Source: Trichoplax sp. H2 (lineage: Eukaryota). Taken from it: a stretch of DNA of 64,000 bases. The notes under the pieces are model-generated. The model did no database searches, had not been told where the DNA came from, and saw only the letters and a program-made list of their open reading frames with translations. The position numbers and the translations under genes are program-made. The stretch is from NCBI GenBank assembly GCA_003344405.1, contig NOWV01000012.1:744001-808000 (forward strand), in the 5' to 3' direction. Position 1 is the first letter of the stretch. Each line of letters starts with the position of its first letter. This document shows positions 15,701 through 43,898 of the stretch, in pieces.

Positions 15701-18304
15701 TTGCGATGTTGATCACATAATACTGTTAAATCAATAATGGCATCGCTTGTAGCTGCAACAATATTTCCATGATAGAGATTAACATATAATGGTTTATCAT
15801 TAATATAACAGCAAGCGGTAAAGTACAGTACATAGCTACCGTTCGAGCTATTTGCAAGATTACTACTGCTACATTTTGTAACTAATTCAATCTCCTTGCG
15901 ATCTGGCATTAAAACAGGTTGCATAGCTATTGGTGGTGTAGCAGGTATACTGTTAAATGATAGGAGAGATGATGATGACGGTGATTGAGTGGTAGTGACT
16001 AATGGCACAGTCTGATTTGGTGCATTTAATCCAGTTGATCGTTCATGTAATAGTCTTATAAATAGTTGTTGATGATTAATTTGGTTATCTAGGATAACAA
16101 AATAAACCGTCTTTAAGCAAATTTCTTCCTTAAGCTGCCGACTGAAACTAGATACCACATCGATCATTCCTTTGATCACTTCATCAGCCTTCAACCGACT
16201 TCCACCAATTCCAATCATGGGTATAGCTATAGATTTCATCAATTCTATTTTGGCTTTTTCTAGGCAACGCGCTAACCCATCCTTTAGCCACTAGAATATA
16301 AAATTGATCATGAGAATACAATACTTTATTCATATCTCAATGGTTAATGAGCTTCGATATGAATTAGCTTAGCCTGTAGGAAGAATTATAATGATGAAAA
16401 ATTTTACAGACTTACTGTGATCGATTTACTGGAACTTAAAAATGGCAAGTGATATACTTTTTTACATCCAAAATAGCTCCCACCAGTACTACCAATATCC
16501 TTGATACCTAGAAATTGTAACTGAATTTCACATTCAAGTTGATAACCTAGACCACCAGCTTTATGTAATGCGGTAGCGATGGCGCCATCGTAATAGGATT
16601 TCAGCTTCATAGAATTGACGATAACATCAGCCTAAAGATGCAAGATAGCATAATATAAATGAACTTTATTTATGTGTATAGCTAATTTCGCAAAGTGTAA
16701 TTTGAATGAAGATATTTCAATATTTTTATAACAAAATTTTTAACATAATTATAACTTTACGCACTACTCGCCCTTCTTTCTCGATACTTCCTATTACCAA
16801 TTTAATAGCAACACGATCATTTATATTATCCGACGTGGCTTTCTTAGGCAAAGTTGACGTTAGGGGTAGTTTATTTATAGGAGTATTAGGGATGACTGTT
16901 TGCGCGGATAATTCATTATTATTAGCGAGAATTAATTTATTTGATACTTTATCCACATCAGATGTCGTCGTAGTTTGTAAATTACAACTTGCTCTACCAT
17001 TAGAATCTATAACTTTCTGAATCTTTACTTCATTCCTTTTAACCTGGTTCATACGCTTTGAGCCCTTCAAATTGGTTGATATACTACTATAAATTATTAA
17101 AATATAGAAATTATATATGTAAAAACAGCAAATTAAATTAGTGCTTGATATTAATAATTGAATAATATCTAGTCATGCTAACATATTACAGAGACAACTT
17201 TTAATTTCTAACACTGATTACAGATCAGTAGCTAGTAAAATTAAACTTGTAATAATTTACGTAAATGTACAGCGCTATTATTAGTACTACAGTATACCGT
17301 ACTCCAGTTAATTCATCATTTTCAGATGAGTGTGATGTACTCAAAAATATTGACGATGAATTATCAACTACTACCAAAGCTTAAAGAAAAGAAGTTACTA
17401 TGGGTAAAAAAGCAGCCGATGGAATTAAAATATGACTGCCAATATTCTCATAATACCTAATCAGACCACAATCGATTTCTGCTATCGAACACGAATTAAA
17501 TACAGTAACCGTTACAATCAATTAGTTCCTTAAAAATTCTGATGACGGATAACTCAGGTTTCAACAAGATTTAAAGAAATTGTGTGCAAGAATAGTCTTA
17601 GACTAAAACTTAACGTGAACTTGGTATTATAATTACCACTTCCATAACATCTAGTCAGATAACTTTCGATTGTAGATACTTATCGAATAACTGTTTACGA
17701 GAATAGGCTGTAATAGCATTAACATTTCAATGATGTATTAATTAATTTTTATTAATAATGCAATACGAGTATATGAAATATGAATCAGTAGTGAAAAGAT
17801 TTTTATTATTATCAACATTTTGCCCATTTAAGGAATATTTACTAGCCGAATCGTTTTCTTAAAATCTATATGAGTCATTTATAACATAGAATATAGGATA
17901 GCAGTCTAACATTGATTTAGCAATAAATACATCTAGTTACAGTTTGCTAACTGATACCTTTGATCTTTATCGTCTAGAATGATAATTATGCAGTCATTTT
18001 CATCTTGTAAAGATTTCAATCTCATCTGACGATGGCTTGATGTTAAAAATCTTCCCACCTTACAACCTGTACTAATAAACTGGTCCTCTTCAACAATAAC
18101 ATTATTTAACAGCTTATAAATCTCGTTCATAATAGATTCTCTATTTGATGGATTACATTGAACTTTAATTTGATGATGACAGATAGACGTATGCAGACAC
18201 TTTTTCTCGTCTGCTTTCTCAAATAGGATAACGCAATTATACTGATTTTCAAGTTGAAGGATTTCATGCATCAAATGTAATCGCAAGTATTCTATTTTCA
18301 AAGC
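12719..18304 (-). CDS. PARP14/15-like macrodomain PARP (macro, degenerate macro, WWE, PARP catalytic); predicted mono-ADP-ribosyltransferase; 5' end unresolved
   Basis: Macro 1 KLVIGSIEKE..ADVIVNS..GAIATALHKAGG..SIAIPMIGIGG; second macro-like VNLYHGNIVAATSDAII..SVSFPLIS; WWE-like TSWY..FDSKMNYDL..IDYENM; catalytic RIQNWNLYRRY..EKLLFHGT..GFDRDYSG..GTGTYFA..TIFVV..AYPEYIL. Exons ~16631-16416, 16290-14753, 14551-14219 and 12981-12719 splice in phase. Exons above 17.4 kb are less certain. Confidence 0.85.
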
Positions 18305-21775: not shown

Positions 21776-22430
21776 AATGAAAATCTGAATACCCAGATTG
21801 CCCAGCCTACTCAGTATAGTATCATTCACTGAGATGCAAAGGAGTATCGAAGTTTTATAGACACTTTAGTCATTGCCACCGTCCAATGAAAATCTGAATA
21901 CCCAGATTGCCCAGCCTACTCAGTATAGTATCATTCACTGAGATGCAAAGGAGTATCGAAGTTTTATAGACACTTTAGTCATTGCCACCGTCCAATGAAA
22001 ATCTGAATACCCAGATTGCCCAGCCTACTCAGTATAGTATCATTCACTGAGATGCAAAGGAGTATCGAAGTTTTATAGACACTTTAGTCATTGCCACCGT
22101 CCAATGAAAATCTGAATACCCAGATTGCCCAGCCTACTCAGTATAGTATCATTCACTGAGATGCAAAGGAGTATCGAAGTTTTATAGACACTTTAGTCAT
22201 TGCCACCGTCCAATGAAAATCTGAATACCCAGATTGCCCAGCCTACTCAGTATAGTATCATTCACTGAGATGCAAAGGAGTATCGAAGTTTTATAGACAC
22301 TTTAGTCATTGCCACCGTCCAATGAAAATCTGAATACCCAGATTGCCCAGCCTACTCAGTATAGTATCATTCACTGAGATGCAAAGGAGTATCGAAGTTT
22401 TATTGACACTTTAGTCATTGCCACCGTCCA
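21776..22430. repeat. Near-perfect tandem array, 109 bp x 6
   Basis: Unit AATGAAAATCTGAATACCCAGATTGCCCAGCC...CATTGCCACCGTCC starts at 21776, 21885, 21994, 22103, 22212 and 22321; one substitution seen, in the last copy. Confidence 0.98.
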
Positions 22431-23172
22431 TTGACATTGATGATAAAAAAAAGGCATTGGTTAAGTACGGACAAAGAAGTTGAGAAGCCTCCTATATCCA
22501 AGAGTCCTCCGGCTATTAAAGGTAGCATTTGTTGTAACCAAATCTTAAGATTGTATACTATATGGACTTTTCACCGTTGCGCTTCTCTGCTTCTCACAAT
22601 TCACAATAATATCTAAAATGAATCTCACACATGAGCTGTATTGACATTAGCCTACCTAATTATGGGCTCCGTATTGAAGCTGAGTGCCAATGTAGCATTT
22701 TAGAACGAGGATAAATTTGATAATGTTGACTCTCTCACGCAGCAGCTATGGTGTGTAGTTCAAGGGTTTCAGATATTATTTCCTATAGTACCTGCTTTTC
22801 GAAGTTAGTAAAATTTAAATCCTTCGTTACTCTCAAATTCCTCAATTATGCATTATAATTTCGTTTCCGAATAACGTTACTGTTATATATCTGAATCTTA
22901 CACTTAGTTAATGTTAGTATATGTTCCCCACGAAAATACATAGCAGTTACAATCTTAATATATATGTATTTAGCGTATCATATGCATACCATTTGCAATA
23001 TTAGAAATGGAATACTTAAAGAATATAATGGAAGTTAACGCAATTATAGATCATGTTATTGCTCTTTGATTAGATATCAACAGATAAAGTCTTGCGCCTT
23101 CATCTTTAACGTAAGCTGAAAACTAATTAATCCTTTTCAACATTAGGAGTGTGTCGAAGCTTAACTCTTGCA

Positions 23173-23677
23173 NNNNNNNNNNNNNNNNNNNNACAATAAT
23201 ATCTAAAATGAATCTCACACATGAGCAGTATTGACATTAGCCTACGTAATTATGGGCTCCGTATTGAAGTTGAGTGCCAATGTAGCACTTTAGAACGAGG
23301 ATAAATTTGATATCGTTGACTCTCTCACGTAGCAGCTATGGTGTGTAGTTCAAGGGTTTCAGATATTACTAGTGCAAACTCCCGTCGCTTTACTGACGGT
23401 TTACGATAATGTGCTCATTTAACAGAGGTTCAGTAACTTTATATCGTGTACTGTGTACAGTACTGTACTGTACTGTAATGTACTGTATGCTGTACAAATG
23501 CACGGTNNNNNNNNNNNNNNNNNNNNAATATAATGGAAGTTAACGCAATTATAGATCATGTTATTGCTCTTTGATTAGATATCAACAGATAAAGTCTTGC
23601 GCCTTCATCTTTAACGTAAGCTGAAAACTAATTAATCCTTTTCAACATTAGGAGTGTGTCGAAGCTTAACTCTTGCA
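23173..23677. other. Assembly gaps (23173-23192, 23507-23526) flanked by redundant copies of 22603-22778 and 23022-23172; probably an uncollapsed second haplotype
   Basis: 23193-23368 matches 22603-22778 with a few SNPs; 23527-23677 matches 23022-23172. Confidence 0.85.
23369..23506 (-). mobile_element. 3' end of a Helitron-like element, truncated by the gap
   Basis: The minus strand ends CCGTCA-GTAAAG-CGACGG-GAGTTTGCA-CTAG, a GC-rich hairpin 9 nt before a terminal CTAG. It sits at an A^T site relative to the empty copy at 22778/22779 and contains an (ACTGT)n tract. Confidence 0.75.
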
Positions 23678-24291: not shown

Positions 24292-27200
24292 TTACAATAT
24301 ATTACAACATTGGCTAACATGAGGATTAGACGTTGTCCTTGTACGTGGCAATGCAGAAAATAGCGCATCTTCAAAAATTGAAGATCCTATCGAAATATTG
24401 TCATATGGATGGAAACGAATATGATTTCCAGAATTACCACCATCATTAATATTGTGATGATTGGTATTATTATGATCAGTATTAGTGCTGGAATCATGAT
24501 TACTATTATTATTAGGATTAGGCGAAAGATTATTCGTGGAATCATTTTGATTATCTAGTGAATTGCCGGATGTTATTTGTTCATCGCTCAGTTTAACATA
24601 TTTATTGATTCGTTCAATAATCTCCGAAAATTTCTCGCGTGGCGATAGATTTCTACCTTTACCTCCATGACCACCACCTTGGCCGCTCATATCGATGTAA
24701 ATAAGTTGAGAAAAGCTAATAGCCATTGCACCTGGTGGTGGCCAATCGACCTTTTCCAACATGACAGGCACAATCGGCTTACCTAACATATCAGCTAAAA
24801 TAATCTCTTTACTACAACTACTGGAAGAGACATACTTGGAGGTTACACATGCAATTACTAATTGGGCCTCTTTGATACCGTCATAAATTTTTTGATATAG
24901 AATATCACCGCCACCCATTTGACCAATATCAATCCAACATTTATAGCCATACCTTCCTAATCGACTACATAAGGCTTTAGCTTCAGCTTGATGGTCCCAT
25001 TGATAGCTGATAAAAATTTCTGGTGAGGGTGTATCGGAGCGGACAATGTTGTTATTATTACTGTCTGAATTTTGAACGATACCTTATGATTGAAATTGAG
25101 CGTAAAAAATAATTGTAAGCTTATATAATGGTATTGATACACTCTTAATATTCCTTCCAAATCAGTTTCAATCATTTAGTTAACGATCACAATACAGCTA
25201 TCAAACAGAAGTCAATCTATACATTTATTTCGTGTTCGTTGTAATTGAAATAGAACATGAACTAAAATTCTAACATGACTGATTTCTTATTAGTATATAC
25301 TCTATTATAGCATACCTTTATTAATCTCAATTTCCTGCATTATGTGCATAACATCGTCGCGTTGTATTGACTGCAATATTTGATATAAATCATCGATGGT
25401 ATTACTTTTACTCCAATCATTCAATATTGCATGTGCAGGATCTGCTGTTAAACTCCAATTACATATATCGATCTCACTATAGCCCATTTTTCGAGCCAAT
25501 GTGCGCCAATTAGCTTTACCAGGTAAAGTTAATAAATCGGTAACTTCATGGGGCCATTCAAATTCTTGTTCATTCTATCAATTTATTAATACATATGTTA
25601 GCTACTAGTTCTAATATGGAAGTCTATGAATGATAGTTTAATTATTTTAGATTTTTTCCAACATATACGAACTACATCATTAATTGTATCTATATCAAGA
25701 CTTTAGTCACTATAAATAGGTATAAAATAAATACCTTGCTACTGGACTTAATTAAGGATCCTAAGCTTTTCTTGTCTAGATTAAACACGGTAATAAAAAA
25801 AGCAATAGAAATTTAGTTATTACAAAATAGTGCCGGTATATTAATGATTGTATATTGATTAGCACTTATGTACGTCGATATCTAAAGATTTTAACTCTCA
25901 GTGGTCAATATAGAACAACCTTTTTTAACTTCAGGACAAAACCACTTTTTATATGGTGCTGTACGAATTCTTCTATGATCACAGAGGACCAGCTAAAAAA
26001 ATGCAATTTTTATGACCGTTTGATGACATATGTATAAAGATCTCTTCAATATTATATAAAATTCTTATGAATATAATCAAAAAGATGACCGTAGGCACAG
26101 CGTATTGATTTATGGTTTAATTGATAATATTCCGAAGTAATAATCTCTTTTAAAGTGCAAAATAAAAATTTGTCATTAGTACTAAGCTAACCTTTGCAGA
26201 CTTGCAGAGTTCTAATTCATGAAAATGCAAACACTCTTCTCTTTGACAACCATTAATGTTATGTTTTTCACATAACTTGTTGCATGTACAGGCTACAACA
26301 ATTTGATAATTAAGGTGACGGATCCAGGCTTTACGCAAGTTAGCCAATGTCGCTTTAACAAACTGCAAAACCTGTAAATAAAGTATTTAAATAAGAACTG
26401 TATATATTTCGGTGTTAATACTATTTACAGAGACTAATATATTTGCCAATCTTTTAATGAAATCATACCTTTGTACATGCTTGTCTATTTACTTCAATAA
26501 CAACTCCTTCTTCCTCATCATCGAAGTTTGCTCGTTGGACAACAACCTATTAGTAAGGGTGTCATACAGGGTATCATTTATAGGTTAGGATTTACTTCTT
26601 ATTTATAGTGAGCCAGACTGTAACAACAAAAGCATCTATTGTAGCCATTAACTGGTACATTACAACACTATTAACCTTTATTCGTGCAAATCGCATAGGT
26701 GCTCGATGTAGTATAAAATCATGATCTTCATCTAAATAAAATCGAGCACAGTTATTATATAAATAAGGCTCTCGACCACCACATTCTTGTGTCCATCTAA
26801 CGACATGCATTAATAAGCGATTATAAAATCCATCTGGCAGAAATCCGTCAAAGTCAACATAGAACGATATATCCCAGTTATTATGAATGTAGATATCTTC
26901 AATCCTCTTGGGATTTTGCAACCGTGATGGTAAATAATACGTATTTCCACATTCCGCATAATCAGTACAATCAGATGATCCCTATAAAATAAGAATAAAT
27001 TTAAAAATAAGATAGTAAATAAAAGATGACTGACATCTAGGTAGAAATTGATAAAACAGCTAAAGAAAGATAGTTATTTATTTTCTTAGGTGCTATAGTG
27101 AATTTGTTGGACCTTTCGGGGAATTAATCGACGACATAGCAGATCAAACGATTCCATTAAATTTAGTAACATTGATTTATGATCGATGATATCACCCCAC

Positions 27201-30200
27201 ATATAATTGATTAAATCGTCAGTCAATATTCCTCGTTTATTAAGTAATTCTAATGTATTCGATTTCATGGAAAACTGAAATAAGATAAGAACAAATTTCA
27301 AAATAGATATTTATAAGCTTTAAAGTTTCATCATTACTAAACAATTGAATTTATGTTCGTTAACTAATAGTCAAAAATATGATTACATTTTATCCGTAAT
27401 TATACCAATCATGTACTAACGTTATTGCCTATGTTTTTCAAAGTTAAAATTTTAACAAAAGAATCAGCCAACCATAACGGATCAAGAATAACAGTAATAT
27501 TGTTGGATGTATTCCCAACTGAATCTTGATAGTGTACAATATTGCCAAGATCGTGATAGTATTGTAACATGACTTTAATAGCAGATCGATCGATAATATG
27601 CGATTCCGATGCAATTAACTGATAAACCTAATAATACATAATAATTTTTAGTATGAAAAAGATTAGTGCGCAAAGATAATATCATCCGTATCACAAAATG
27701 AATAATGTTATTGTAGTAATGAAAATATGATATAGATATGGTACAGTATTTGTCAATGCAAGAGTAAAAAAATGTGACAGCACTGGTAAATCGGGTTACA
27801 GTACAATATTATTTATGTATCTATTGAATTTAAAAACTATTCAAATGGCTATTTATATAACCTTAAAATAATTATTATCAATCGATAATTATTGTTTGAT
27901 TGTTATATTTCTTTTACGCAATTAAAACTATGTTCAGTCTAGTCTTATTAGTTAATCAATACTAAATTTAATTATACTTATTAAACGCTCACTGAACTGA
28001 CATAAATATTCTTATTCCAAGAAATACTACCTTATCGTCTAGACAATAAACCTATTTACTTATTTATTTATTAATTTGTCCGCAGAAACGGTGTCAATAA
28101 CCATACACAATTCAGCTATAAGTCGATTTTAATCATGAGCTTAATTGCTTTAGCACTGACCTCATCGGATGATATTAAATGCTTTCCTTCTTTCGTCATT
28201 TGTCGAGATAGGCATTCAAATTTTAGCCACTGGATCGGTATCTTTTCACTGATAAAAGGTTGTGATTCTACAGCATTGTCGATGCTTTGAATAAGTTTGG
28301 CCAACTACATAATATCATAAAAAAGAAATCTTATTTAAATTCTTTCCATGACATTAAATCCACTGTTCTCATCAAAAAATAAAATAAATCTATTAAATTG
28401 CGAACATTTTTTTACTTACCTCCTCGTCTTGATCATCATCTAATTGATCATCAATTGCAAAAAATATTGGGGCCATATGCCTAGCGTAAGGTTTACCCCG
28501 TAGGTTTTCCTGTATCCTATCAAATCTATAGTTTATTAATTTGTTACGTTCCTAATAGGAAACAAAGAATTGTCGTTAGAAAGAGCTTATATTCTATCAT
28601 ATCTCAATGGCCTTTACATTAATAATAATACAATCAAAAGTTTTAAATATGCTCTTAATTTTTATTGTTGGAGGTTAGCTATTATTTACCCGAATATAAA
28701 CAAAATAATATTACATACATTTTTCGACTTACTGTGATATTACTACCAAGTTTATTCTTATTAATGCCAATGATAAATACGGTAGGTGTTAGAAGAGTAG
28801 CTTTACGACTGGGGTTTTGACCAACAGCGCAAGAGTAAATGGAGCTCATCCAGTATAAAATAAAATCCAGTACACATAATTCATTTCCCTCCTATCAAAA
28901 AATTTATAATTTGAGTTAAACTTCATATGCATTCACTTAAAGTTTTTTGTGTCAGGGACTACTTCTTTTAGTAGTCCCTGTTAGTATGGATATATAATTA
29001 AATAAAAAATAAATTAAAAGTAAATTGTTCACTACGAATGTCGATTCTAATTAGTACAATTGTAAAACGACTAAAGTTTAATTTTAGACACTATACCGAT
29101 TCTTCAATATCTTCGGTTAAATCGAAAGCGATGATATAGATTGATTTATTGTTGCAAAACATCTACATTATCCAGATAATAATAAAATGGAAATTAATAG
29201 CTAATAAGGGGAAATTTCTGATTTAGAGTGAACGATTAAATATAGGAAGTGCAACGATGGTTTCAAAAGTTTGGCGATCGCAATTAACTTACACGATAAG
29301 ATAAATTGTGTATAGGTTGTCCACTTAAATCCCAGACATCATGAGTTTTTAAGACCTCCTCATTGGGCTTAACTTCGATATTATTTTTTTCATGATTATC
29401 AATATCACAATTTTCAATCATTTTGCATACAATTTGTTTCATTGTAGGGGCTAAGCTATTTAATATTGCTTCATGCTGTTGACTAGCTTGCAGGGTCGAA
29501 TCGGAAGTTTGTAATTCCTTCGACAAATGCCAGCTAGGAGAATAACTTGGTTCATCTTCAATATCACAAATATCATGATCGTCAATATAACGATCTTCGT
29601 CATTGACATTCATATTAGATTCATCAATATCTTGATTATCGATTATACTTTCTAATTTGGTAACAATGCTTTTAGCTAATGCTTGATCTAGTTGTTCTTG
29701 AATTTTTTCCATTTCATCTATTTTAATTGACAATAAAATCATAATTGAGAATGTACTATAGATGAATTTCGCTATACCGCATATTTAAACAACGAAAGGG
29801 GCAAGACTTCTGAGTGTCAATACTGCATCATCATTTTAGGTATTGATTATAGCTATTTTACATCTTTATTTATAACAGCATGATAGGTTACCTTCTATGG
29901 TGGAAAACGAATATTTCTTATCCAAAGCATCTTTTCCGCCTTCTTCTACTAAAGGACTTAAATTACCTTGACCTAAAGTATCAAAATTGTTCATTGCGAA
30001 AATTTTAAAAACAAACGAATTAATTACAATAAATATTTAGTAGATTTAACAGTTCCATGTACTTTATAACTTTTAAGCTACTTGTACAGAGAAATAACGT
30101 AGTTATAAATATGATGTAGATATGTATTACCTTTCAGGATTTTACTAATTGTTTGTCGGGGAAGCTGATCTTTACTTAAGATTACAAAGCGAATTCGACG

Positions 30201-33200
30201 AACATTTCGACAATCAAACTGTGAAGCTTTATTATATGCTGCAATAGCATCTTCACCATGTGCTAAAATTTCCGGTGGAACTTATGGTTTGACAGAAGAG
30301 CGAGAATGATATAAATCAGAAAATTGGATAATATAGATTTTGATCAATGTCTATGTAGCTCTATAGCAGGGAATATTTCAAGAAAAAGCTTGCATTTCTT
30401 GAGTAGTCCCTGTTTAAAGTACTGTCAAGCAAATAAAACTTTAGTCTATTCGAACAGTACCAAATACGATATTAAAGAAAGTAATGAACATTTATGGTAA
30501 ATTTCTATCCGTGCACGTTTGATAGGGAATAAAAGATCTTTAAATAATAACGCAGATGTTTATTGTAATAAAAAAGATACTACCGGTAATTGTTGCAAAG
30601 ACATCATTCGCTAGGCGTTTCTTTATTTCATTTACATTTAATCTAATAATTTACATTATAGTTTCAACCTATATCTAAGGAAAACCTCTATTACGATCGT
30701 TAACCATATCTCTGGTTTGGATTAACTTACTATTTTCATTCCCTTCCGGCACGATGGTAGCACAATCACAGTTACCATACAAATTAATAATGCCGTAGAC
30801 GTTATTAGTAACATCCGTAGCTATCGCACCTAGAAAGACAAAATAAGCAGTATCGTTGGAAAATGCATTAAAAGTGTAAAGTAGTTCATAGTTATATTTA
30901 ATTAATTTGTCAACTCGGATTTTTCAGCGGCACCATAGTTAATCAAGTACATAAATTATTTCTCTGTCCTAACTGTTACTCTAATTAATAATTATCAATC
31001 GGTATTTTGCTTTAGATAGATACAATCTCCAGTATAAGTACGCCATATTTAATTTGAGTTATACCTATACTATAACAAATTAGTAAGGTATGATGTTTCA
31101 TAGCAACAGCTACTTAACTCATCAATCAATATTTACTTCCGATAAGCAATATTATTAGGTCAAGTTAATAAGCTTCGCGTGAATATTATCATGTGCAACT
31201 ACTACATATTGAATTGTAATAATTGCCAAATGTTGTACGAGAATTTTCGATTTGATTTAGTAATAGAGTGTTAACGTGTTTACTATTCGCTTTGTAAATT
31301 ATACTTTTATAACGATTCCTCATTAAAAATTTCTAATTTACAAAAACTTTATGATAAATGTAATCATAAAGTTACGTTCTGAAATATATCTCAAATGCCA
31401 CATGAGCGTAAAATAATTTATGCCATCTCAGTCCCCACTACCGTAAGTTATGCTTTAACGTACGATAAATATAGATTATTTCATAAATGTGAGAAATTAA
31501 CCTAAGTCATTGCCATTAATGTACGCATGAACATGACCATTTGTCTTTCGACTAATACCAAAATAATCGCCCATCTTCAAAGAATGCAATCCTTGATGAT
31601 GGCAGTAATTTTGACATTGACCATGGACATAAAGATTTTTATCGCTGAGAATCCAATTTGGAGATTGTTGTATTCCTACTAAAGAGCGGGGGAATTGTAA
31701 ACTGGTTGGTGATGCAGTTGTTAAACCAATTTGTAAGTTCCCATTCCACCTTGTCATAACATTGTCAATTCTTAACTGAAATAACTCATTATCTTGTAAA
31801 GGACGATTTGTCATAAAAGTAGCAGCATCGAATTGACTGACTGGATTTTTACGGCTAGCAATCGTAAAATCGGACGATAACATGCCATTTAATCCATGTC
31901 TAGAGTAAAAAAGTAAAGGAGTTCGGGGATTCGAAGCTGAAAGTAAAAATAAAGGCACATAGATATTAAGAGAAAGGCGATAATCAGTCAATATTAATCT
32001 CTTTTTTAGCTTCATTGATATTTACCATTTCACAATATTGCTATTACTATAGATTCCTTTTACATTTAAAGTTTACGGAGAAGTTGTAGCAATCAAGTAT
32101 TAGAATATTCTAACGTATAAAATTTATTAGAAGAAAGATTTACCTGCAGGCTGTTCTCCAAGATAGTCTATCCTTACTTTACAATCGCCAATAATTGTTG
32201 ATATCATAGGATAAAGAATTTTTCCTTGTAGTCCGTGAAAGGCAATCCCTAGGTTAACACCATTAACTTCGTAAGATAAAGTTCCTCTATCCATATCTAA
32301 GATAACGCAAAATTTCTTAAATCTAGATAATTCTTGATTTAATATGTTACTGCCATCTTCGCCATCTTGATTCTGGTTATGCAAATGATTAAGCATCGGG
32401 TAATGGCCTTGTTCAATATTTGCATGTATTAATACTCTTTTGCTGATATTCCATCCCCAACTATTAGTACTACAACCAACTAGGCTGGTATAGCCTGTAC
32501 AATGCAGACACTCTTTCTTGTTACCAACACCGGCAACGGAATGAGATCCTAAAAATATAGGTATAAAATCATACATAGGATCAATTAAAAAATCATCCCA
32601 ATAATTAAGTGCAATTTCTGTTTGAAACTGAATTACTTGATTAGTTAATAAATTAAAACTTTAACTATATTACTTTAGCATTTCCTTAAGCAATATTAAT
32701 CATGATCAATCTATGGTCGTTATATCAAAATGATTCAATATATCTTAGAACTACTCTATACCAGAGCCGATAGTAAATAGGCCACTCTTGATTCAAAATT
32801 GATCAACAAAATAGATTCACAGTAACATGAACTAGCTACATTATTGAAAGACAAGGACTGAAGTAAAAATTTATATGTATGGTATGTTTTATAAAGAGAA
32901 AAGATTACATGATAAATAGTGATACTATGTTTATTTGATATCATCAAATAGAGATTTGCGACCATTTCTCAAGAATAATTCATCAATTCCACTATGTTCA
33001 TTACATGTTTAATATATGGTATTAAAATGACTAGACTTTAGAAGACTCGGTTTACGTATGTGCATGCTGATCATTGATTAATAAATGACTGAAACAGATT
33101 TGAAAATCGAAGCCTTAAATTACAGCAATCATAAAATGTAATTTATCATCGCCATTAGCAGAAAGAAACGAAGTACAAAATGACAGTAGTGTTAACATAA

Positions 33201-34592
33201 CAAATGGATTTACCATAGCAAAATACACATTACTCGTATAATGATGCATGCAATGGTTAATAATTTACGAAAGATAACGTATGTAAATTAACGTTTTCGT
33301 ATATGGAGTATGACTGATTCATAATTATTATCACAACAGACTTAATCTATTGATTGTGATATCGGGTATGCTATATGTATTGCCTAGAAAGATTGAAACT
33401 AACTACTATGATTCGTTAATTCAAATTAGTAGCAGTAATTTACAGTGATACTATCACTCCAACACGTTTTCGGGATAGGGATAATTACGTTCAAAACTGA
33501 ACTTGATAATAAAGCTATTCAGGATCAAATAGAGGACGCAGATGACATAAAATCTATTTTTAAGATAGAACTCAGCAAGAAATTAACGGAAAAGATACTA
33601 ACCTAAATCTCCTTGCCATGTTAATTGCCAAACATGTCTACCATTCTCTATGCTTCGATTACATCGAATAGCATCAGTTGATTGGACTGCTTTCTGCCTC
33701 TGACAAGCATGAAGATCATCGTCCAGAACATGAATATTAACTGAACAATCATCTGGATTCCATGTATATAGATTGGCCATTTCTTGACCTGGCCGACGGT
33801 TGCCTGATGATCAATAAATAGAGTAAATTATGAGGATAGAATATCTTCATGAATTAATGTCCTTACTAAACGACATACTATATGAATTACTATTAGCTTA
33901 ATCAAAGCTATCCTGAAATAACAGGATAGTTCATAATGCTTTAGGATTACTTTGTTAAATACTTATTTAAGGTTACCAAGAATGACAGTAAACTTACCAA
34001 GATAAATGATTGAAACTTCTGCATTGCCATAGACTTCGCTAACCATTGGATAAAGAGATTTTCCAACTAGCCCAGTACAACAGATACCAAGATATTTACC
34101 CTCAGCTTCAAATGCTAATGTTCCATTTTCCATATCCAGATAGACTATAACTTCACTCGGTGCTTGGTAATCAAGAGCCATAGACGGATAGCAAGTTAAT
34201 GATTTCTTTCCTGCACTATAGCTAATCTTGTTAGTAATATCCCAGCCCCAAGCGTTAGGGTCTTGCTCAATTAATGTTGTGTAACCTTTACAATGTAGTA
34301 TGGCTTCTTTTGAGCCAACACCTGCTACTGCATGGCTACCTCGTGGAGTTAACCATTTTAATTTCCAAGCATGATGGCCATGAGTATAGCCATATCTACC
34401 TCTAATAGCATCGGTTGATCGACGAGCTGGCCTTCGATAAAAGGTTAATGGGTCATCGTCTTTAATGTAAATATTTTTGGAATGATCTGCGGGATGCCAA
34501 GAATGAATAATTTCCTGATTGAGTTCATTTTTACAAATCGAGTCGTGTTTATCACCATGGCGGACGACATGATCACGACTAGTTGTTACCAT
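24292..34592 (-). CDS. Multidomain Roco-like protein: SPRY-SPRY-NHR(Neuralized)-degenerate Roc-COR-Death-TIR, Asn-rich tail, CaaX; over 20 exons, roughly 1700 aa by rough exon sum
   Basis: SPSB-type SPRY x2 (HSWHPADHSKNIYIKDDDPLTFYRRP..STDAIRG; TWNPDDCSVNI..STDAIRC); NHR (FMTNRPLQDNELFQLRID..WNGNLQIGLT..VYGIINLYGNC); Roc lead-in VPPEILAHGEDAIAAY, WDLSGQ, SIYIIAFDL, LDFILYWMSSI; COR (IPIQWLKFE, MLQYYHDLG, VILDPLWL, YYLPSRL, FDGFLPDGFYNRLL); Death (NWRTLARKMG..AILNDW..LQSIQRDDV); TIR (IFISYQWD..CWIDIGQMGGGD..CSKEI). Splice phases were checked by eye from SPRY into early COR and for Death-TIR. Confidence 0.85.
28953..28980. repeat. Intronic 28-bp foldback CAGGGACTACT-N6-AGTAGTCCCTG
   Basis: Perfect 11-bp inverted arms; shares its termini with 30367-30412. 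Confidence 0.7.
30367..30412. repeat. Intronic 46-bp foldback CAGGGAATATTTCAAGAAA...TTTCTTGAGTAGTCCCTG
   Basis: Imperfect ~18-bp inverted arms; the right end AGTAGTCCCTG is identical to that of 28953-28980. Confidence 0.65.
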
Positions 34593-37500
34593 CTTTCTTT
34601 TTTCTCCTTGGAATAATATAAAAGTAATCTTTACTTTAAGTTGGCTTAATAACAGTTGGGTAGCTAGAGCTAAATTTTAATGAAGGAAAAAGTAACGAAT
34701 AAATTTATAGCTATAATATATGCCAACATTACGGGAAGAAAAGTTATAACTTCGATAATGACACATATAGGTGTACAGCAGTAGTCCGGAGTCATAAAAT
34801 TAAAGAAAATTTGCTAAAGAAAGGGTGAGGTAATAACTGCCATTTTCACCTTCCTTTTAGTAAATCATTATCTTATAAATGCCCAATTTTCGGCTACTGT
34901 ACGTTAAATGTCACTTTAATAGACTTTAATAAAAATGAAGGATAAACTCATTAAGTGATCTAATAAATATTATTAAAATAAACCAATTATAGAAATGAAA
35001 GAAAAGCTTCTAAACAGTCTTATGAAAACAATTTTATAAGGAGAATTTTAATAAATAATTAAAAATGGAAAATAAGACCTGAAATTAATTTAAATTTTTC
35101 CTGCTTATTGGATTATAAACATGGTTGAATAATATTCCCGTACTACTTATTTTTCAATATGCATATTAAAATTCATATTAACAAACGATAACAAAACTTA
35201 TCGATCATGAATATAAAGTACGTATATAAATCTTGGGATATTTTCGAAGGATATTAGGGAGAATTTAAAGAGGGATCAATAACGAGATTTTTCTCACATA
35301 CGTATAGTATAGTGCACGGTACAATTGTCTATTGTATCTCTATCCATAAAAATGTCAACTATATTATTGTATATGGTCTTTAGATTCTTTACTGAAGTTA
35401 AATTCAATGATTCATAGCACAGGATTTAACTATGTTAAGGCAAATGAAAGATTCTTCGGTATAAAATAAAAATGTTCAATTCTCGAGTACCGGTAGCTTA
35501 AATCTTCAATCGGTTTTATGCCTCTATTATTAGAGTCATAATTTCTTTAGATTATTCTTACTGTGAGTATAGGAAATTACTTAAATTAATTGAATAATTT
35601 CAACTAGAAAAAGCTTTTCTTTTTTTTCTCGATCTAAACTTTAGATAGATCTATGCAAAAATTTCTACTGCGTTGCTACTAACTGCTACGGGATAAGCTT
35701 TATATGATCTTTAATAGAATTTCATCGCTTCCTTAAAAGATGCCTATTTCGTTTATCTTCAATACATATTTGCTTCATACCACCTTCATATATAGAATAC
35801 TTTTGATTATAAATAAATGATTAGTAATTTTACCGTCAATTCTCGACAAACTTTACGGGTAATTTATCAAAGATTTACTGCAGGACAGTCTTTAGTGTTG
35901 TGGGGGTACCTCGTATTACACCCGTAGTATAGTAATAGTGTTGTAGTTTAGATTAATGAATCGCCAATGGGGTAAATTAGTAGTAGTATTATTTATGTGT
36001 TGGCAGTACAAAATTTTTAGTACAACGATACAAAGGTACTTTATCATGGCATGAAGATTTAGGTTAATAATTATTCACAGAGGCATTCAGATTTAATGCT
36101 ATTAAACTGTTATCTTCAATTTATAGCATAAGAATTTTAAGGAAGAATAGACATAACGCAATCGATGTAACTCATACATCAAAATTGCAAATAAACCTAG
36201 AATCTGATGTGTGTCTGAACTTAATCACTATCCTTAAGTAAATCACTTAGCGACGTTCATATCCAGTGTAACTTTAAGACAGAAATTGACATTAAAACTA
36301 AAGGGCTATATTCAAATTCATAGTATGGTAAAATGTCAATCAAAGAAGTCAAATTTTTCGTTAAAATAGATAACTTGTTTAGAAAGAAAAGGCTACATAC
36401 GTTACGCGATCAACTTAACAGCAAATTTAAAGAAATAATTATTACACGTAGCATTACCGGGTTAGTAGTTTTGCATGTTGAAAAGTCAAATTATCAAGGA
36501 AGAAATTGAAAACACATTTGATACTTATGGCATCAAATATTGCCTAATACTGTAGCTTAATCATTGATATCGCCTACGTATAGAAGAAAATTGAGATCCA
36601 GAGTTTAGAAAAATTAAGCAGGTACTTCTAATTTTAATATTATGAAGTATATCACGTATATTAGAACATTATATTCAGGAGTAGGAGAGGATTATGACTT
36701 TTCTAGATGAAGACTGATCCATCGCTACTTTTACGGCAATCATTTAAAAAAGGCTGTTACAATCTATATTTACTATATAGCACTAAATATATGACCGGTA
36801 CCTTAACATAAAATTCATAAGATAAGCTAGACAATCATATAAGAATGAAATAGATTCATTATCTTTTTTACCCCTAGAATAACTTCTGAAATAGATACTA
36901 TGTCATAATTTTATTGCTCCACGTACATCTAAGGCTAATAACTTGCCCTAAAATTATAGGTAATAAAGGCAAGCTGTGACTTCCCCAATGGAATGATGTG
37001 CTGCTACATACTTATGACTACGCTCATGTGCTATGATATTTTTATTTGGCTGTCTCTGTATTAGATATTCTTCAATTTAACTTGTGAAGAGTTACTTGAA
37101 TTATAATGATGCTACAAATATTATTGGAGTCTACGTACAAAGTTAGAAATGGAGAGTGTTATGAAAATAAATTTTATGACCTTTCAGCAATTTCAGTATA
37201 AATAGAACTAGAAAAGGAGTTATTATAAATACCCTTTAAAATAGTGTGATAAGCTGCTTAAATTTATCGACAAATAAACCTAAAGTCAGATTTTTATTAA
37301 TAATGTTAATAAAAAAAATTTTACAAACGATATAACAACCAAAACTTTTGCAGTTAGTGTTATAATTTCGACAAAACCTTTATGACTCTAGTAAGAGAAG
37401 TAGTAGTATTTAATTAATAGAAGCTCCGCTGTACAGTATATTTCACGTCCTACACATATACGTGTATCATACTTATTATGGATAACTTTTGCAAGTATGT

Positions 37501-40756: not shown

Positions 40757-41995
40757 TATGGTACATGTACATTGTACAGTATGTTCTAAGCTTGACGGTG
40801 AATGTCCTGTACATTATTTCTGTTCGTGCCGGCGTAAAGTGGAGTGTCCTAAAGTTACAGTACCGTACAGCAGATCGCACTACAGTACTGTAGAACACTC
40901 ACAGATGCATGATTTGAAATTACTGTCCAGTACAGCTATTAAGCTGTTTATCATGTTCTTTCTTGATTTGTTAAGAGCCCCACAGAGTGGGGCAACAAAA
41001 AATTGGTTAGAAACTCATCTGTGTTCCTCTCCACGGAAATCTTTAGTAAAAGGCGAAAGATTTATACGATCTGAAGAGAAACCAGAGTGAAGAGTACGAG
41101 ATCAATTGAGTCCTTATAAGCAGTTCATACGTGCTTTCAATTATGGTTCTACTCATTAGCATACGTATCGTACAGTACATTGCATTGCAACACACGGTGC
41201 AATGTACTATATTTCACGGTACTTCGTACTGTACTGTACAGTCATACCGAACTGTACAGAGTACTGTACAGTGTACACTTGTACGTACGGTCTGTACTGT
41301 ACAGGACAGTACTGTACAGTAAAATTTATGGTCCTGTCAGGTCACGGACTACGGGTTAGGGTTAAGGTTTAGGGTTAGGGTTAAGGTTTAGGGTTACGGT
41401 GCGACCCTCTCGGACAGACGGAGAGAAGGTTTAAAATGTCTGTCCATCCAAGAGTGATCAGTCCAAGTTTTCTTTTCGTAATTCATGCACTCAGTGTACT
41501 CTTAATCTCTTATTACTTTATCAACAGTTACTGGAGCCGACGATGAGATCACGTGGTTTCTAGTTGGAATAGCCTACAAGCCTTGCTGACACGATGACTA
41601 GGCAAAGGACTACTATGGACTGCAGTGGGCCAGTCGAATCAATTTTGCCTTCCTCTGTACTACAGTATCTGTACAGTACTGTACTGTAATTAGAAACTCC
41701 CTTAGATCATCCGCTGCACGAGCATTAAATGAGCTCCCGTTGAAATGCAGCACAGCCTATCATTAGCAAATGAACAACATTATAACCACTGTACTGTACA
41801 GTGTACAGTATGCCAGGTTCTACAGTCTCACTTGCAGTGTACTGTACTGTACTTGCAGTGTTCGACCGTAATTTAGGTACGTTCACACGATGAAGTTTTT
41901 GCAGGACTACTATAAAGACTTCAGTCAAATCCTGTATTTTTGTCTTGGTCAAGGACACTGGAAGACAAGGGCTAAACGTGACGTGGTGGGCCCAA
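40757..41995. repeat. Compositionally distinct, putative mobile-derived segment with ACTGT/ACAGT tracts around a telomere-like core
   Basis: Higher GC than the flanks by eye; dense TACTGTACAG motifs at 41165-41320, 41655-41690 and 41787-41860; TTAGGG-type run at 41353-41399. Boundaries are approximate. Confidence 0.55.
41353..41399 (+). repeat. Interstitial telomere-like repeat (GGGTTA/AGGTTT variants)
   Basis: GGGTTAGGGTTAAGGTTTAGGGTTAGGGTTAAGGTTTAGGGTTACGG. Confidence 0.9.
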
Positions 41996-43262: not shown

Positions 43263-43542
43263 ACTATAACTTACAATATGTGTATTGTCTTAGGTGGAGA
43301 ATAGAATGATTGCATCCGATAATTAAATATGGCTTACGAGTATACTGTGTTAAAAAATACCGACTACTCCGCCCTAATAAGAATAAAAATGATGAAGCTA
43401 AATTGTTCCATTACACCTCTANNNNNNNNNNNNNNNNNNNNCGTAATTTAGATATTTCTAGGACAGTCTTTTGTGCTATCACCAACATTTTAACGTTGTT
43501 CCAGTCTCACACTATTTTCCAATATTACTAAGTAAAGCGATT

Positions 43543-43898
43543 CTTAATATTAAGAAAGAGATAAATGCGGATATATCTGTCGACTGAATATTAGTACGCC
43601 ATCATTCGCGTAGTAATGTTCAGTCGACTTAATATTAAGAAAGAGATAAATGCGGATATATCTGTCGACTGAATATTACTACGCCATCATTCGCGTAGTA
43701 ATGTTCAGTCGACTTGATATTAAGAAAGAGATAAATGCGGATATATCTGTCGAATGAATATTACTACGCCATCATTCGCGTAGTAATGTTCAGTCGACTT
43801 GATATTAAGAAAGAGATAAATGCGGATATATCTGTCGAATGAACATTACTACGCCATCATTCGCGTAGTAATATTCAGTCGACAGATATATCCGCATT
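43543..43898. repeat. 85-bp x 4 tandem array of the same hairpin, inside a redundant copy (43442-44057) of 43061-43421 across an N gap
   Basis: Units start at 43543, 43628, 43713 and 43798; only the last has the complete right arm. Confidence 0.9.

What the first reader, a model, noticed from the sequence alone, without database searches (positions are those of the whole stretch)
24292..34592. Unusual SPRY-SPRY-NHR-Roc-COR-Death-TIR protein: candidate single-chain immune receptor
Seen: one reading frame can be spliced from two SPSB/Gustavus-type SPRY domains through an NHR into Roc-COR, followed by Death and TIR exons, with no kinase, LRR or SOCS box. Established: SPSB SPRY and NHR domains bind short peptide motifs, COR dimerises Roco proteins, and Death+TIR is the MyD88 pairing. 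Inference: sensor, oligomerisation scaffold and effector in one chain, NLR-like in logic but built on Roc-COR. Roco genes with varied domains are known in early-branching animals, but I do not recall this combination.
Basis: partly seen in the sequence, partly recalled or inferred. Interest (0 to 1): 0.9.

Follow-up and report, generated by a model that had tools for sequence, protein, structure and literature searches.

The report
SPRY-tagged ROCO Death-TIR signalling gene
This is an intact animal gene of a conserved but untested family that joins a neuralized-type binding domain, an LRRK2-like Roc-COR core, a death domain and a SARM1-like TIR domain; this copy seems to have gained two extra SPRY binding domains and has lost its GTP-binding loop.

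Summary
On the minus strand, 34592 (ATG) to 24292 (stop), 19 GT-AG exons join without a stop into 1619 codons. They encode two SPSB-type SPRY domains, a Neuralized repeat, Roc, COR-A, COR-B, Death and TIR_2. No kinase, LRR or SOCS box was found.

The combination is not new from the Neuralized repeat onward. 9 of 15 Pfam-scanned relatives carry Neuralized-Roc-COR-Death-TIR: amphioxus, octopus, bivalves, snail, starfish, nemertean, centipede, rotifer. It was noted in print in 2016 and 2022.

- None of the 15 relatives has SPRY. The SPRY-to-Neuralized splice is inferred only; I could lay no RNA reads.
- The Walker A loop is destroyed here but intact in 10 of 11 relatives.
- The TIR is closest to SARM1, with the catalytic-glutamate position kept. 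A C-terminal CaaL prenylation box is kept in 12 of 12 sequences.

Most likely this is a membrane-anchored, nucleotide-independent scaffold that links peptide recognition to Death/TIR assembly. It is a new variant of a known, uncharacterised kind.

The parts
33998..34592 (-). Exon 1 (aa 1-199): start ATG at 34590-34592 and SPRY domain 1 of SPSB type (about 34002-34514)
   Evidence: Pfam SPRY 2.9e-10. SPSB4 2.6e-49 over residues 27-197. Donor TTG|GTAAGT.
33603..33803 (-). Exon 2: N-terminal third of SPRY domain 2
   Evidence: Matches SPSB1 residues 30-84, 1.2e-9. Phase-1 acceptor and donor.
32144..32548 (-). Exon 3: remainder of SPRY domain 2. It ends at the domain boundary with donor CAG|GTAAAT.
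   Evidence: Pfam SPRY 1.6e-6. SPSB4 residues 86-203, 2.4e-22. Read through the donor, the frame stops 5 codons later and an AATAAA overlaps that stop.
31502..31936 (-). Exon 4: Neuralized homology repeat, main part. It is an internal exon with no initiator Met of its own at the family's start position.
   Evidence: Pfam Neuralized 1.6e-23. The relatives' Met1 aligns with Leu here. An 80%-identical ORF from a relative, P0091, is 120 of 146 identical from the acceptor to the donor but only 4 of 9 identical before the acceptor.
30731..30829 (-). Exon 5: end of the Neuralized repeat
   Evidence: Family profile positions 117-157. Donor ATA|GTAAGT.
30131..30280 (-). Exon 6: linker and Roc strand 1 with the degenerate Walker A relic SKDQLPRQ (30153-30176)
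   Evidence: Family profile 158-210, E 1.4e-7. Alignment to G-x4-G-K-T of relatives. The acceptor at 30280 is weak (AAG); it was chosen because it keeps the conserved PPEILAHG. The alternative is 30262.
29892..29972 (-). Exon 7: putative switch-I segment, placed by splice sites and phase only. It could be a cassette exon.
   Evidence: No match to the family profile (positions 211-257 unmatched).
29293..29717 (-). Exon 8: acidic low-complexity insert inside Roc, then the G3 motif DLSGQ
   Evidence: Family profile 261-401. G3 aligned with DFAGQ of relatives.
29097..29162 (-). Exon 9: 22-codon exon for Roc strand 4 (MFCNNKSIYIIAFDLTEDIEES)
   Evidence: Found only with the family profile (positions 407-427, E 0.033). 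Phase-0 AG and GT on both sides.
28420..28891 (-). Exons 10-11 (28891-28733, 28551-28420): rest of Roc, with the G4-equivalent IGINKNKL
   Evidence: Family profile 440-537, E 2e-8 and 7e-9. Alignment.
27113..28304 (-). Exons 12-14 (28304-28161, 27627-27421, 27274-27113): COR-A
   Evidence: Pfam COR-A 3.9e-10 and 0.016. Family profile 536-706.
25930..26981 (-). Exons 15-17 (26981-26676, 26371-26192, 25992-25930): COR-B and a conserved Cys/His-rich module
   Evidence: COR-B exon: 80 hits in 1.84 billion representatives, best long hit 53% identical. Family profile 708-917. Cys/His columns. Exon 17 found by tblastn and bounded.
25316..25574 (-). Exon 18: Death domain
   Evidence: Pfam Death 2.7e-13. 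Best solved matches p75NTR 3.1e-5 and MyD88 3.4e-3.
24292..25082 (-). Exon 19: linker with DSNNNN (25048-25065), TIR domain (24619-25020), Asn-rich tail, C-terminal CCNIL CaaX box (24295-24309) and stop (24292-24294)
   Evidence: Pfam TIR_2 1.2e-23. SARM1 TIR 3.7e-5 with the KE(I) position aligned. CaaL end in 12 of 12 sequences. Translations checked. Alternative in-frame acceptors lie near 25066 and 25019.

Best explanation
One 19-exon gene on the minus strand (34592-24292) encodes a 1619-residue cytosolic protein.

Family. From residue ~408 to the end it is a divergent member of the conserved metazoan family Neuralized repeat - Roc (split by a long acidic insert) - COR-A - COR-B - Cys/His module - Death - TIR - CaaL.

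Two lineage-specific changes in this copy:
- Two SPSB-type SPRY domains, without a SOCS box, are spliced in front of the Neuralized repeat.
- The Walker A loop of Roc is destroyed.

Proposed working (inferred):
1. The C-terminal CaaL box is geranylgeranylated and holds the protein on a membrane.
2. The three beta-sandwich modules (SPRY, SPRY, Neuralized) bind short peptide motifs of a ligand or partner.
3. Roc-COR acts as a fixed dimerising scaffold rather than a GTP switch.
4. Ligand-driven clustering assembles the Death domains and brings the SARM1-like TIR domains together.
5. The TIR domains then either cleave NAD+ (the catalytic-glutamate position is kept) or recruit other TIR/Death proteins.

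Shown: the exon structure is possible and open, the domains, membership of the family, the P-loop loss, and the conserved Glu and CaaL.

Inferred: the SPRY-Neuralized junction, prenylation, NADase activity, and an immune or cell-death role.
For: Gene model. It is open, with GT-AG at all 18 introns and donors mostly GTAAGT/GTAAAT/GTTAGT.

Colinearity with relatives. The model aligns with a profile of 11 relatives (9 clusters at 90%) from residue 409 onward. Profile domains score 67, 425, 93 and 29 bits. The last exon scores 252 bits.

Tree. A quick ML tree puts the window inside the Neuralized-ROCO-Death-TIR clade (SH-aLRT 99), apart from the DED-Macro, Macro and kinase-ZU5 ROCO proteins.

Architecture of relatives. 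9 of 15 scanned carry Neuralized+Roc+COR-A+Death+TIR_2, and 11 of 15 carry Roc+Death+TIR_2.

Evidence that the SPRY exons belong to the same gene:
- In all 11 relatives Met1 directly precedes the Neuralized repeat. Here that position is Leu, and the frame continues 8 codons upstream to a strong acceptor, TTTTTACTTTCAG.
- In a relative's ORF (P0091) identity is 120 of 146 from that acceptor to the donor but 4 of 9 upstream of it. Its ATG falls on an Ile codon of the window, so no start codon is conserved.
- The nearest upstream exon on the same strand, 207 nt away, is the end of SPRY2. It has a strong donor in the matching phase 1, and introns 1-8 are all phase 1.
- SPRY2 ends at its domain boundary with no SOCS box.
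- The only in-frame ATG for a stand-alone start (32013) lies inside the pyrimidine tract region and behind an out-of-frame ATG.

P-loop. The window has SKDQLPRQ where 10 of 11 relatives have G-x4-G-K-T. No other Walker A is encoded on this strand of the locus, apart from a chance match in the read-through of the exon 3 donor.

TIR. SARM1 is the best solved match, and the K-E pair aligns with SARM1's HKEI. This Glu is present in 12 of 12 sequences.

C-terminus. C-a-a-L with an upstream Cys is present in 12 of 12 sequences.
Against:
- 0 of 15 scanned relatives has SPRY.
- A word-based search for long proteins with this SPRY found only a 355-aa SPRY protein.
- Phase compatibility alone has a 1-in-3 chance.
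- An AATAAA overlaps the read-through stop just after the SPRY2 donor, so a separate or alternative SPRY-only transcript is possible. AATAAA occurs in 9 of 18 introns, however.
- Pfam Roc does not hit any single exon.
- Exon 7 and the exon 6 acceptor are weakly supported.
- The window's branch in the tree is very long (1.93 against a median of 0.68). The tree was the unfinished 'quick' one, and the window's amino-acid composition deviates.
- Function, prenylation and NADase activity are untested for any member of the family as far as my searches show.
Confidence: 0.62

Rival explanations
1. Two adjacent genes on the same strand. The first is a SOCS-less SPRY-SPRY gene (34592 to about 32127), ending by read-through of the exon 3 donor. 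The second is an ordinary Neuralized-Roc-COR-Death-TIR gene that starts at the ATG at 32013 or is trans-spliced at 31936.
For: - All 9 relatives with the Neuralized repeat begin with it at residue 3 or 4.
- No SPRY-ROCO protein was found elsewhere.
- Read-through of the donor gives a stop after 5 codons, with an overlapping AATAAA.
- An in-frame ATG exists at 32013.
Against: - Only about 114 nt would separate the stop and the start.
- That ATG is not conserved in the relative P0091, whose own ATG falls on Ile here.
- The 35 added residues are the translation of a pyrimidine tract, and conservation starts exactly at the acceptor.
- The ancestral Met codon is gone.
- The donor and acceptor are as strong as any in the gene and their phases match.
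- After the acceptor the first in-frame Met would delete the conserved start of the Neuralized repeat.
Confidence: 0.25
2. A decaying paralogue. The locus is a duplicate of the family gene that has lost GTP binding and is drifting toward a pseudogene, and the SPRY exons lie next to it by accident.
For: - Walker A is destroyed and the switch-I Thr motif is not recognisable.
- The window has the longest branch in the tree, 1.93 against a median of 0.68.
- Best identity to any relative is only 33% over 1062 columns.
Against: - 1619 codons over 19 exons carry no stop or frameshift, and all splice sites are intact.
- G3, COR, the Cys/His columns, Death, the TIR Glu and the CaaL box are all kept.
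- Exon-limited conservation of 80-95% is seen in ORFs from related organisms (P0001, P0091).
Confidence: 0.06
3. Same single gene, but the TIR works as a MyD88-like scaffold adaptor in a Toll/IL-1-type pathway rather than as an NAD-cleaving effector.
For: - The Death-then-TIR order is that of MyD88.
- The MyD88 death domain is among the solved matches (3.4e-3).
- The Aplysia paper files its orthologue under MyD88-like proteins (PMC9334734, passages).
Against: - The TIR's 14 best solved matches are all SARM1. No MyD88 TIR appears at E <= 0.01, and the catalytic-Glu position is conserved in 12 of 12 sequences.
- The Death domain matches p75NTR better than MyD88.
Confidence: 0.3

Closest known systems
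Uncharacterised metazoan Neuralized-Roc-COR-Death-TIR proteins, e.g. XP_019640924.1 (Branchiostoma belcheri), XP_052830315.1 (Octopus bimaculoides), XP_033637020.1 (Asterias rubens), UniRef100_T1IR33 (Strigamia maritima); names
   Same: - Colinear from the Neuralized repeat to the last residue.
- Same split Roc with an acidic insert.
- Same COR-A and COR-B, Cys/His module, Death domain and SARM1-like TIR with the conserved Glu.
- Same C-terminal Cys-x(0-2)-C-a-a-L.
- Same clade in the quick tree.
   Different: - About 400 extra N-terminal residues with two SPSB-type SPRY domains; 0 of 15 scanned relatives has SPRY.
- Walker A is destroyed here but intact in 10 of 11 relatives.
- The switch-I region is not alignable.
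- A very long branch, with only 33% best identity.
- A DSNNNN motif in the Death-TIR linker that none of the 11 relatives has.
Sea-anemone 'NG3' (kinase-SH3-Roc/COR-Death-TIR) and other Roc-COR-Death(-TIR) proteins with swapped N-termini (PMC5094078, passages; P0020 DED-Macro-Roc-COR-Death from a crinoid)
   Same: A constant Roc-COR-Death(-TIR) chassis carrying a variable N-terminal module. The paper itself names the 'neuralized' version in Strigamia and Crassostrea as the nearest architecture.
   Different: The N-terminal module here is SPRY-SPRY-Neuralized, with no kinase, SH3, DED or Macro domain.
SPSB1/SPSB4/GUSTAVUS (SPRY plus SOCS-box substrate receptors of cullin-5 ligases)
   Same: - Both SPRY domains match SPSB structures end to end.
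- The equivalents of hSPSB1 Arg77, Tyr129 and Gly218 are kept in both. These residues were named critical in PMC2923778 (passages); I read the equivalents off the alignments.
   Different: - No SOCS box, so no link to elongin/cullin is expected.
- Trp217 is replaced by Tyr in SPRY1 and by Ile in SPRY2.
- Thr111 is replaced by Ser and Asn.
- Two domains in tandem, fused to a ROCO protein.
SARM1 (ARM-SAM-SAM-TIR NAD+ hydrolase)
   Same: The TIR is the nearest solved relative (3.7e-5). K-E-I aligns with SARM1's H-K-E-I. I recall this Glu as catalytic E642; the number comes from no call.
   Different: No ARM or SAM domains. Oligomerisation would have to come from Death and Roc-COR. The enzymatic activity is untested.
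DAPK1 and LRRK2 (animal ROCO proteins)
   Same: - Roc-COR tandem.
- DAPK1 also has Roc-COR followed by a Death domain (recalled).
- LRRK2's Roc domain binds the Neuralized-repeat protein NEURL4 in trans (PMC4565672, abstract in search listing only), which resembles the fusion seen here.
   Different: No kinase, ankyrin or LRR domains. The P-loop is dead. TIR and a CaaL box are added.
Bacterial Roc-COR-TIR conflict proteins and NLR/TNL receptors (Kaur, Burroughs, Iyer, Aravind; PMC8195603, passages)
   Same: The logic of variable sensor, NTPase-type core and Death/TIR effector in one chain. [quoted passage not shown]
   Different: There is no STAND NTPase, and the core here cannot be expected to bind nucleotide. 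No homology beyond the shared domains was shown.

Membership tests
Metazoan Neuralized-Roc-COR-Death-TIR family | Neuralized homology repeat preceding Roc | tested here: met
   Pfam Neuralized 1.6e-23. Family profile positions 2-211 align to model residues 409-632. Unlike in relatives, it is not at the N-terminus.
Metazoan Neuralized-Roc-COR-Death-TIR family | Colinear Roc (with insert), COR-A, COR-B and Cys/His module | tested here: met
   The profile of 11 relatives matches every exon in order. Five Cys/His columns are invariant in 12 of 12 sequences.
Metazoan Neuralized-Roc-COR-Death-TIR family | C-terminal Death, TIR_2 and C-a-a-L end | tested here: met
   Pfam Death 2.7e-13 and TIR_2 1.2e-23. 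The end is CCNIL, against CVIL, CSIL, CTIL, CNVL, CAVL and CLIL in relatives; 12 of 12 end in C-a-a-L.
Metazoan Neuralized-Roc-COR-Death-TIR family | Groups with the family in a tree, apart from other ROCO types | tested here: met
   SH-aLRT 99 for the 12-row clade in a quick, unfinished IQ-TREE run. The window has a long branch and a deviant composition.
ROCO proteins (functional Roc GTPase plus COR) | Walker A / G1 motif G-x4-G-K-S/T | tested here: not met
   SKDQLPRQ at the aligned position. 10 of 11 relatives have the motif. No alternative exon encodes one.
ROCO proteins (functional Roc GTPase plus COR) | G3 motif D-x-x-G-Q and Pfam Roc match | tested here: inconclusive
   DLSGQ is kept. 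Pfam Roc hits no single exon. The spliced protein could not be given to the Pfam tool.
ROCO proteins (functional Roc GTPase plus COR) | COR domain directly after Roc | tested here: met
   Pfam COR-A 3.9e-10. The COR-B exon finds ROCO proteins.
SPSB / GUSTAVUS family | SPSB-type SPRY domain | tested here: met
   2.6e-49 to SPSB4. 1.2e-9 and 2.4e-22 for the two exons of domain 2.
SPSB / GUSTAVUS family | C-terminal SOCS box | tested here: not met
   No SOCS_box hit in any exon or ORF scanned. Only 5 codons follow SPRY2 before a stop if the donor is read through.
SPSB / GUSTAVUS family | Four residues critical for (D/E)(I/L)NNN binding: hSPSB1 Arg77, Tyr129, Trp217, Gly218 (PMC2923778) | tested here: inconclusive
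   Arg, Tyr and Gly are kept in both domains. Trp is replaced by Tyr (SPRY1) and Ile (SPRY2). Read from the alignments.
MyD88 | Death then TIR, with both domains orthologous to MyD88's | tested here: not met
   The order is the same. No MyD88 TIR appears among solved matches at E <= 0.01. The MyD88 death domain (3.4e-3) ranks behind p75NTR (3.1e-5). A 1350-residue N-terminal part is foreign to MyD88.
SARM1-type NAD-cleaving TIR domains | Catalytic glutamate at the start of the helix after strand C | tested here: met
   S-K-E-I aligns with SARM1 H-K-E-I. The Glu is present in 12 of 12 family sequences. Its identity with catalytic E642 is recalled.
SARM1-type NAD-cleaving TIR domains | NAD+ hydrolase activity | not testable with these tools
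   Needs an enzyme assay.
NLR / STAND receptors | NACHT or NB-ARC STAND NTPase core | tested here: not met
   No such Pfam family in any exon. The resemblance is in logic only.

The most novel reading that the evidence does not exclude
A ROCO protein that has given up nucleotide switching and become a peptide-motif-triggered death switch. Two SPSB-type SPRY domains, which in SPSB proteins clamp (D/E)-x-N-N-N peptides with nanomolar affinity, would read such a motif in a foreign or stress-exposed protein. Alternatively they would hold the protein's own DSNNNN linker between Death and TIR as an autoinhibitory latch. Release or clustering on the membrane would then fire a SARM1-like NADase. This would be the first animal Roc-COR-based, NLR-like sensor with a defined ligand class.
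Probability: 0.1. Interest if true: 0.8.

Novelty: new variant of a known kind. Interest (0 to 1): 0.5.

Why it matters
The Neuralized-Roc-COR-Death-TIR family is conserved from rotifers and molluscs to echinoderms and amphioxus. In my searches it appears in print only as a domain architecture, with no experiment on any member.

It combines an LRRK2/DAPK1-type core with a SARM1-like TIR and a prenylation box. That makes it an animal counterpart of the bacterial Roc-COR-TIR conflict proteins and a candidate membrane-bound death or immune switch.

This copy is a natural experiment in two ways:
- It has a dead P-loop, which asks whether Roc-COR can work as a pure scaffold.
- It carries an added pair of SPSB-type SPRY domains whose ligand class (Asn-rich short motifs) is known, which gives a concrete handle for finding what such a protein senses.

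If the SPRY exons prove to be a separate gene, what remains is an ordinary but divergent family member.

Tried and rejected
RNA evidence
- The look-up of sequencing runs listed 21 runs, 18 of which hold part of 24692-34680. Three runs on record as RNA hold 0.30-0.35 of the sampled words. One guessed-RNA run holds 0.45. Three runs hold 0.83-0.86 and are probably DNA.
- By my arithmetic from the exon table, all exons make up about 0.45 of that stretch, and the exons without the SPRY part about 0.33.
- None of these runs was laid, so I draw no conclusion from them.

No whole genome is held for this window.

Searches that found little or nothing
- The search for homologous proteins with the Neuralized ORF, 'longer': nothing among 203 candidates.
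- Neuralized exon, 'near': only P0091, a genomic ORF of a relative.
- SPRY1, 'longer': only a 355-aa SPRY protein among 268 candidates. These word-based searches are weak evidence of absence.
- JGI metagenome scan with the Neuralized exon: 70 pattern matches, none confirmed.
- ESM Atlas with SPRY1: SPSB clusters only, no ROCO cluster.
- The scan's earlier findings: nothing on this genome or this sequence. By words, only bacterial ROCO-TIR notes came up.

Complex prediction. SPRY1 with the 35-residue linker holding DSNNNN gave 'no answer' (score 0.00, controls not run). This is no evidence either way.

DSNNNN motif. One (D/E)-x-NNN occurs in the protein. 432 of 5000 composition-preserving shuffles have at least one, and the genome is AT-rich and Asn-rich, so the motif may be chance.

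Readings considered and dropped
- A frameshift after G3 looked possible, because the +1 frame resembled the next family segment. It was rejected once the 22-codon exon at 29162-29097 was found.
- An upstream coding exon beyond 34676 was looked for and not found. There is no coding-like ORF on the minus strand up to about 40700, and the AAG before the ATG is a weak acceptor.

Literature
- Searches for a SPRY-ROCO fusion found none in the listings: (badly targeted).
- Gerdol et al. 2017, which defined the ecTIR-DC families, is not held. I recall that this family may be one of them but could not check.
- Supplements are closed. Figure S1 of PMC6321704 and Table S10 of PMC5094078 may list related architectures.

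The organism could not be placed.

Full report
WHAT IS THERE

The window is AT-rich (GC 0.28-0.38 in 2-kb windows) and eukaryotic in gene structure. On the minus strand between 34676 and 24292 lies a run of open pieces whose translations hit Pfam:
- SPRY, 2.9e-10
- SPRY, 1.6e-6
- Neuralized, 1.6e-23
- COR-A, 3.9e-10 and 0.016
- Death, 2.7e-13
- TIR_2, 1.2e-23

I enumerated GT/AG pairs between successive pieces that keep the frame. I read the difficult junctions by eye. I then used relatives to find what the ORF list had missed.

GENE MODEL

tblastn with three relatives revealed an 18-codon match at 25992-25939. A profile of 11 relatives, searched against all open pieces of 8 codons or more, revealed a 22-codon exon at 29162-29097. 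That exon supplies the Roc strand which at first seemed to be missing.

The final model has 19 exons, 4860 nt including the stop, and 1619 residues, with no internal stop. GT-AG is present at all 18 introns. Intron lengths are 115-1054 nt. Introns 1-8 and 18 are phase 1, and introns 9-17 are phase 0. Exon GC is 0.36 against 0.21-0.31 in introns.

The start ATG (34590-34592) has A at -3 and G at +4. No coding-like ORF lies upstream on this strand for about 6 kb.

Weak points of the model:
- The exon 6 acceptor is AAG at 30280. It was chosen over 30262 because it keeps the family's conserved PPEILAHG.
- Exon 7 has no homology support and could be a cassette exon.
- The exon 19 acceptor has three in-frame choices.

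THE SPRY DOMAINS

Exon 1 matches solved SPSB4, SPSB1, GUSTAVUS and SPSB2 structures over residues 27-197 (2.6e-49 to 2.4e-37).

The second domain is split by a 1054-nt intron. Exon 2 matches SPSB1 residues 30-84 and exon 3 matches SPSB4 residues 86-203. That splice is therefore confirmed by homology.

There is no SOCS box.

Filippakopoulos et al. call four residues critical for binding (D/E)(I/L)NNN peptides (PMC2923778, passages). Of these, Arg77, Tyr129 and Gly218 have equivalents in both domains. Trp217 is Tyr in domain 1 and Ile in domain 2. I read this off the alignments.

THE REST IS A KNOWN FAMILY

The COR-B exon was scored by HMMER against 1.84 billion representatives. It found 80 proteins at E <= 0.001. 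I Pfam-scanned 15 of the long ones:
- 9 have Neuralized (starting at residue 3 or 4), Roc, COR-A, Death and TIR_2.
- 2 more have the same without the Neuralized repeat. One of these is annotated as a shorter isoform.
- 1 is DED-Macro-Roc-COR-Death.
- 1 is Roc-COR-kinase-ZU5.
- 1 is Macro-Roc-COR.
- 1 shows only Death-TIR.
- None has SPRY.

Source names place the family in Branchiostoma, Octopus, Dreissena, Sinanodonta, Physella, Asterias, Tubulanus, Strigamia and the rotifer Didymodactylos. All are labelled 'uncharacterized' or auto-named kinases.

In print:
- The actiniarian immunome paper mentions a 'neuralized' version of its kinase-SH3-Roc/COR-Death-TIR gene in Strigamia and Crassostrea (PMC5094078, passages).
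- The Aplysia immunome paper lists a MyD88-like protein with ROCO domains, and its Fig. 6 legend names NHR, ROC, COR, Death and TIR (PMC9334734, passages).
- A review lists at least 17 ROCO genes with CARD, death, TPR, LRR, AAA, MBT, SH3 and TIR in Trichoplax. SPRY and NHR are not among the listed domains (PMC4104024, passages).

The window's product is colinear with the family profile from residue 409 to the end. It falls in the family's clade in a quick ML tree (SH-aLRT 99), on a very long branch, with at most 33% identity to any relative.

WHAT IS SPECIAL IN THIS COPY

1. The SPRY pair.

2. The P-loop. Where 10 of 11 relatives (9 clusters) have G-x4-G-K-T, the window has SKDQLPRQ: both glycines, the lysine and the threonine are replaced. 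The switch-I S/T-D/E-G of relatives has no counterpart. G3 (DLSGQ) is kept. No other Walker A is encoded on this strand of the locus, apart from a chance match in the read-through of the exon 3 donor.

3. A single (D/E)-x-NNN motif, DSNNNN, sits in the Death-TIR linker. None of the 11 relatives has one. 432 of 5000 shuffles of the protein produce such a motif, so it may be chance.

FAMILY FEATURES I HAD NOT SEEN DESCRIBED

- All 12 sequences end in Cys-a-a-Leu with another Cys zero to two residues upstream. By recalled knowledge this is the signature of geranylgeranylation with a second lipidation site.
- All 12 keep a Glu that aligns with the K-E of SARM1's H-K-E-I. I recall this as the catalytic E642.
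- SARM1 provides the 14 best solved matches of the TIR. No MyD88 TIR appears at E <= 0.01.
- The Death domain is nearest to p75NTR (3.1e-5), then MyD88 (3.4e-3).
- A Cys/His-rich stretch between COR-B and Death has five invariant columns.

ONE GENE OR TWO?

For one gene:
- The ancestral Met before the Neuralized repeat is Leu here.
- The frame runs 8 codons further up to a strong acceptor. In the relative's ORF P0091, identity is 120 of 146 from that acceptor to the donor and 4 of 9 before it.
- P0091's ATG falls on Ile in the window, so no start codon is conserved.
- The nearest upstream exon, 207 nt away, ends SPRY2 at its domain boundary with a strong phase-matched donor.

For two genes:
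- No relative has SPRY.
- Reading through the donor stops after 5 codons, with an overlapping AATAAA. AATAAA is present in 9 of 18 introns, however.
- An in-frame ATG exists at 32013.

I put one gene at roughly 0.7-0.75. Only RNA can settle it, and I could not lay reads.

MECHANISM (INFERRED)

A prenyl-anchored protein carries three beta-sandwich peptide-binding modules. Roc-COR serves as a constitutive dimer scaffold, because the nucleotide pocket is gone. Ligand-driven clustering lets the Death domains assemble and brings the SARM1-like TIR domains together, for NAD+ cleavage or for TIR/Death recruitment.

LRRK2's Roc domain is reported to bind the Neuralized-repeat protein NEURL4 (PMC4565672, abstract in search listing only). 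The Neuralized repeat may therefore contact Roc within the chain.

Kaur et al. note that SPRY-like domains are joined to Death-superfamily and STAND modules in eukaryotic immunity, and that Roc-type GTPases act as switches in bacterial conflict systems (PMC8195603, passages). The analogy is one of logic, not of shown function.

VERDICT

The gene is a new variant (SPRY-tagged, P-loop-dead) of a known but uncharacterised family. Interest is moderate.

Noticed in passing
window 40976-41090 (-): A complete U5 spliceosomal snRNA gene (104 bits, model positions 1-117 of 117).
   Followed up: partly
window 12719-16290 (-): Downstream neighbour on the same strand. Exons carry a PARP catalytic domain (1.2e-7 and 8.2e-6), and a 514-codon exon has a weak Macro hit (0.0052). 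This looks like a macro-PARP (PARP14-like) gene, a class often linked to innate immunity.
   Followed up: partly
window 46624-47889 (+), 56256-57245 (-), 53874-54176 (+): Two paralogous single-exon rhodopsin-family GPCR genes (7tm_1, 3.7e-25 and 5.7e-25), plus an ORF that looks like a fragment of a third copy.
   Followed up: partly
window 62136-63702 (-): Exons of an N-terminal acetyltransferase A auxiliary subunit gene (NatA_aux_su, 6.8e-18).
   Followed up: no
window 22000-22434, 43543-43883, 41353-41400; N runs at 23173-23192, 23507-23526, 43422-43441: Tandem arrays of a 109-bp unit (4 copies, 99% match) and an 85-bp unit (4 copies, 98%). A short interstitial GGGTTA (telomere-like) run. 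Three 20-N assembly gaps.
   Followed up: no
window 25930-26371 (-), and relatives P0002-P0090: A Cys/His-rich stretch between COR-B and the Death domain, with five columns invariant in 12 of 12 sequences (C, C, H, C, C). It may be a zinc-binding module. No Pfam family matched it.
   Followed up: partly
window 24295-24309 (-), and the C-termini of 11 relatives: Every family member ends in C-a-a-L with an upstream Cys (CCNIL here). This predicts a prenylated, membrane-bound ROCO-TIR protein. I found no mention of it in the passages I read.
   Followed up: partly
window 32120-32143 (-): Directly after the SPRY2 donor, the read-through frame stops after 5 codons and an AATAAA overlaps the stop. 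A short SPRY-SPRY-only isoform made by intronic polyadenylation is conceivable.
   Followed up: no
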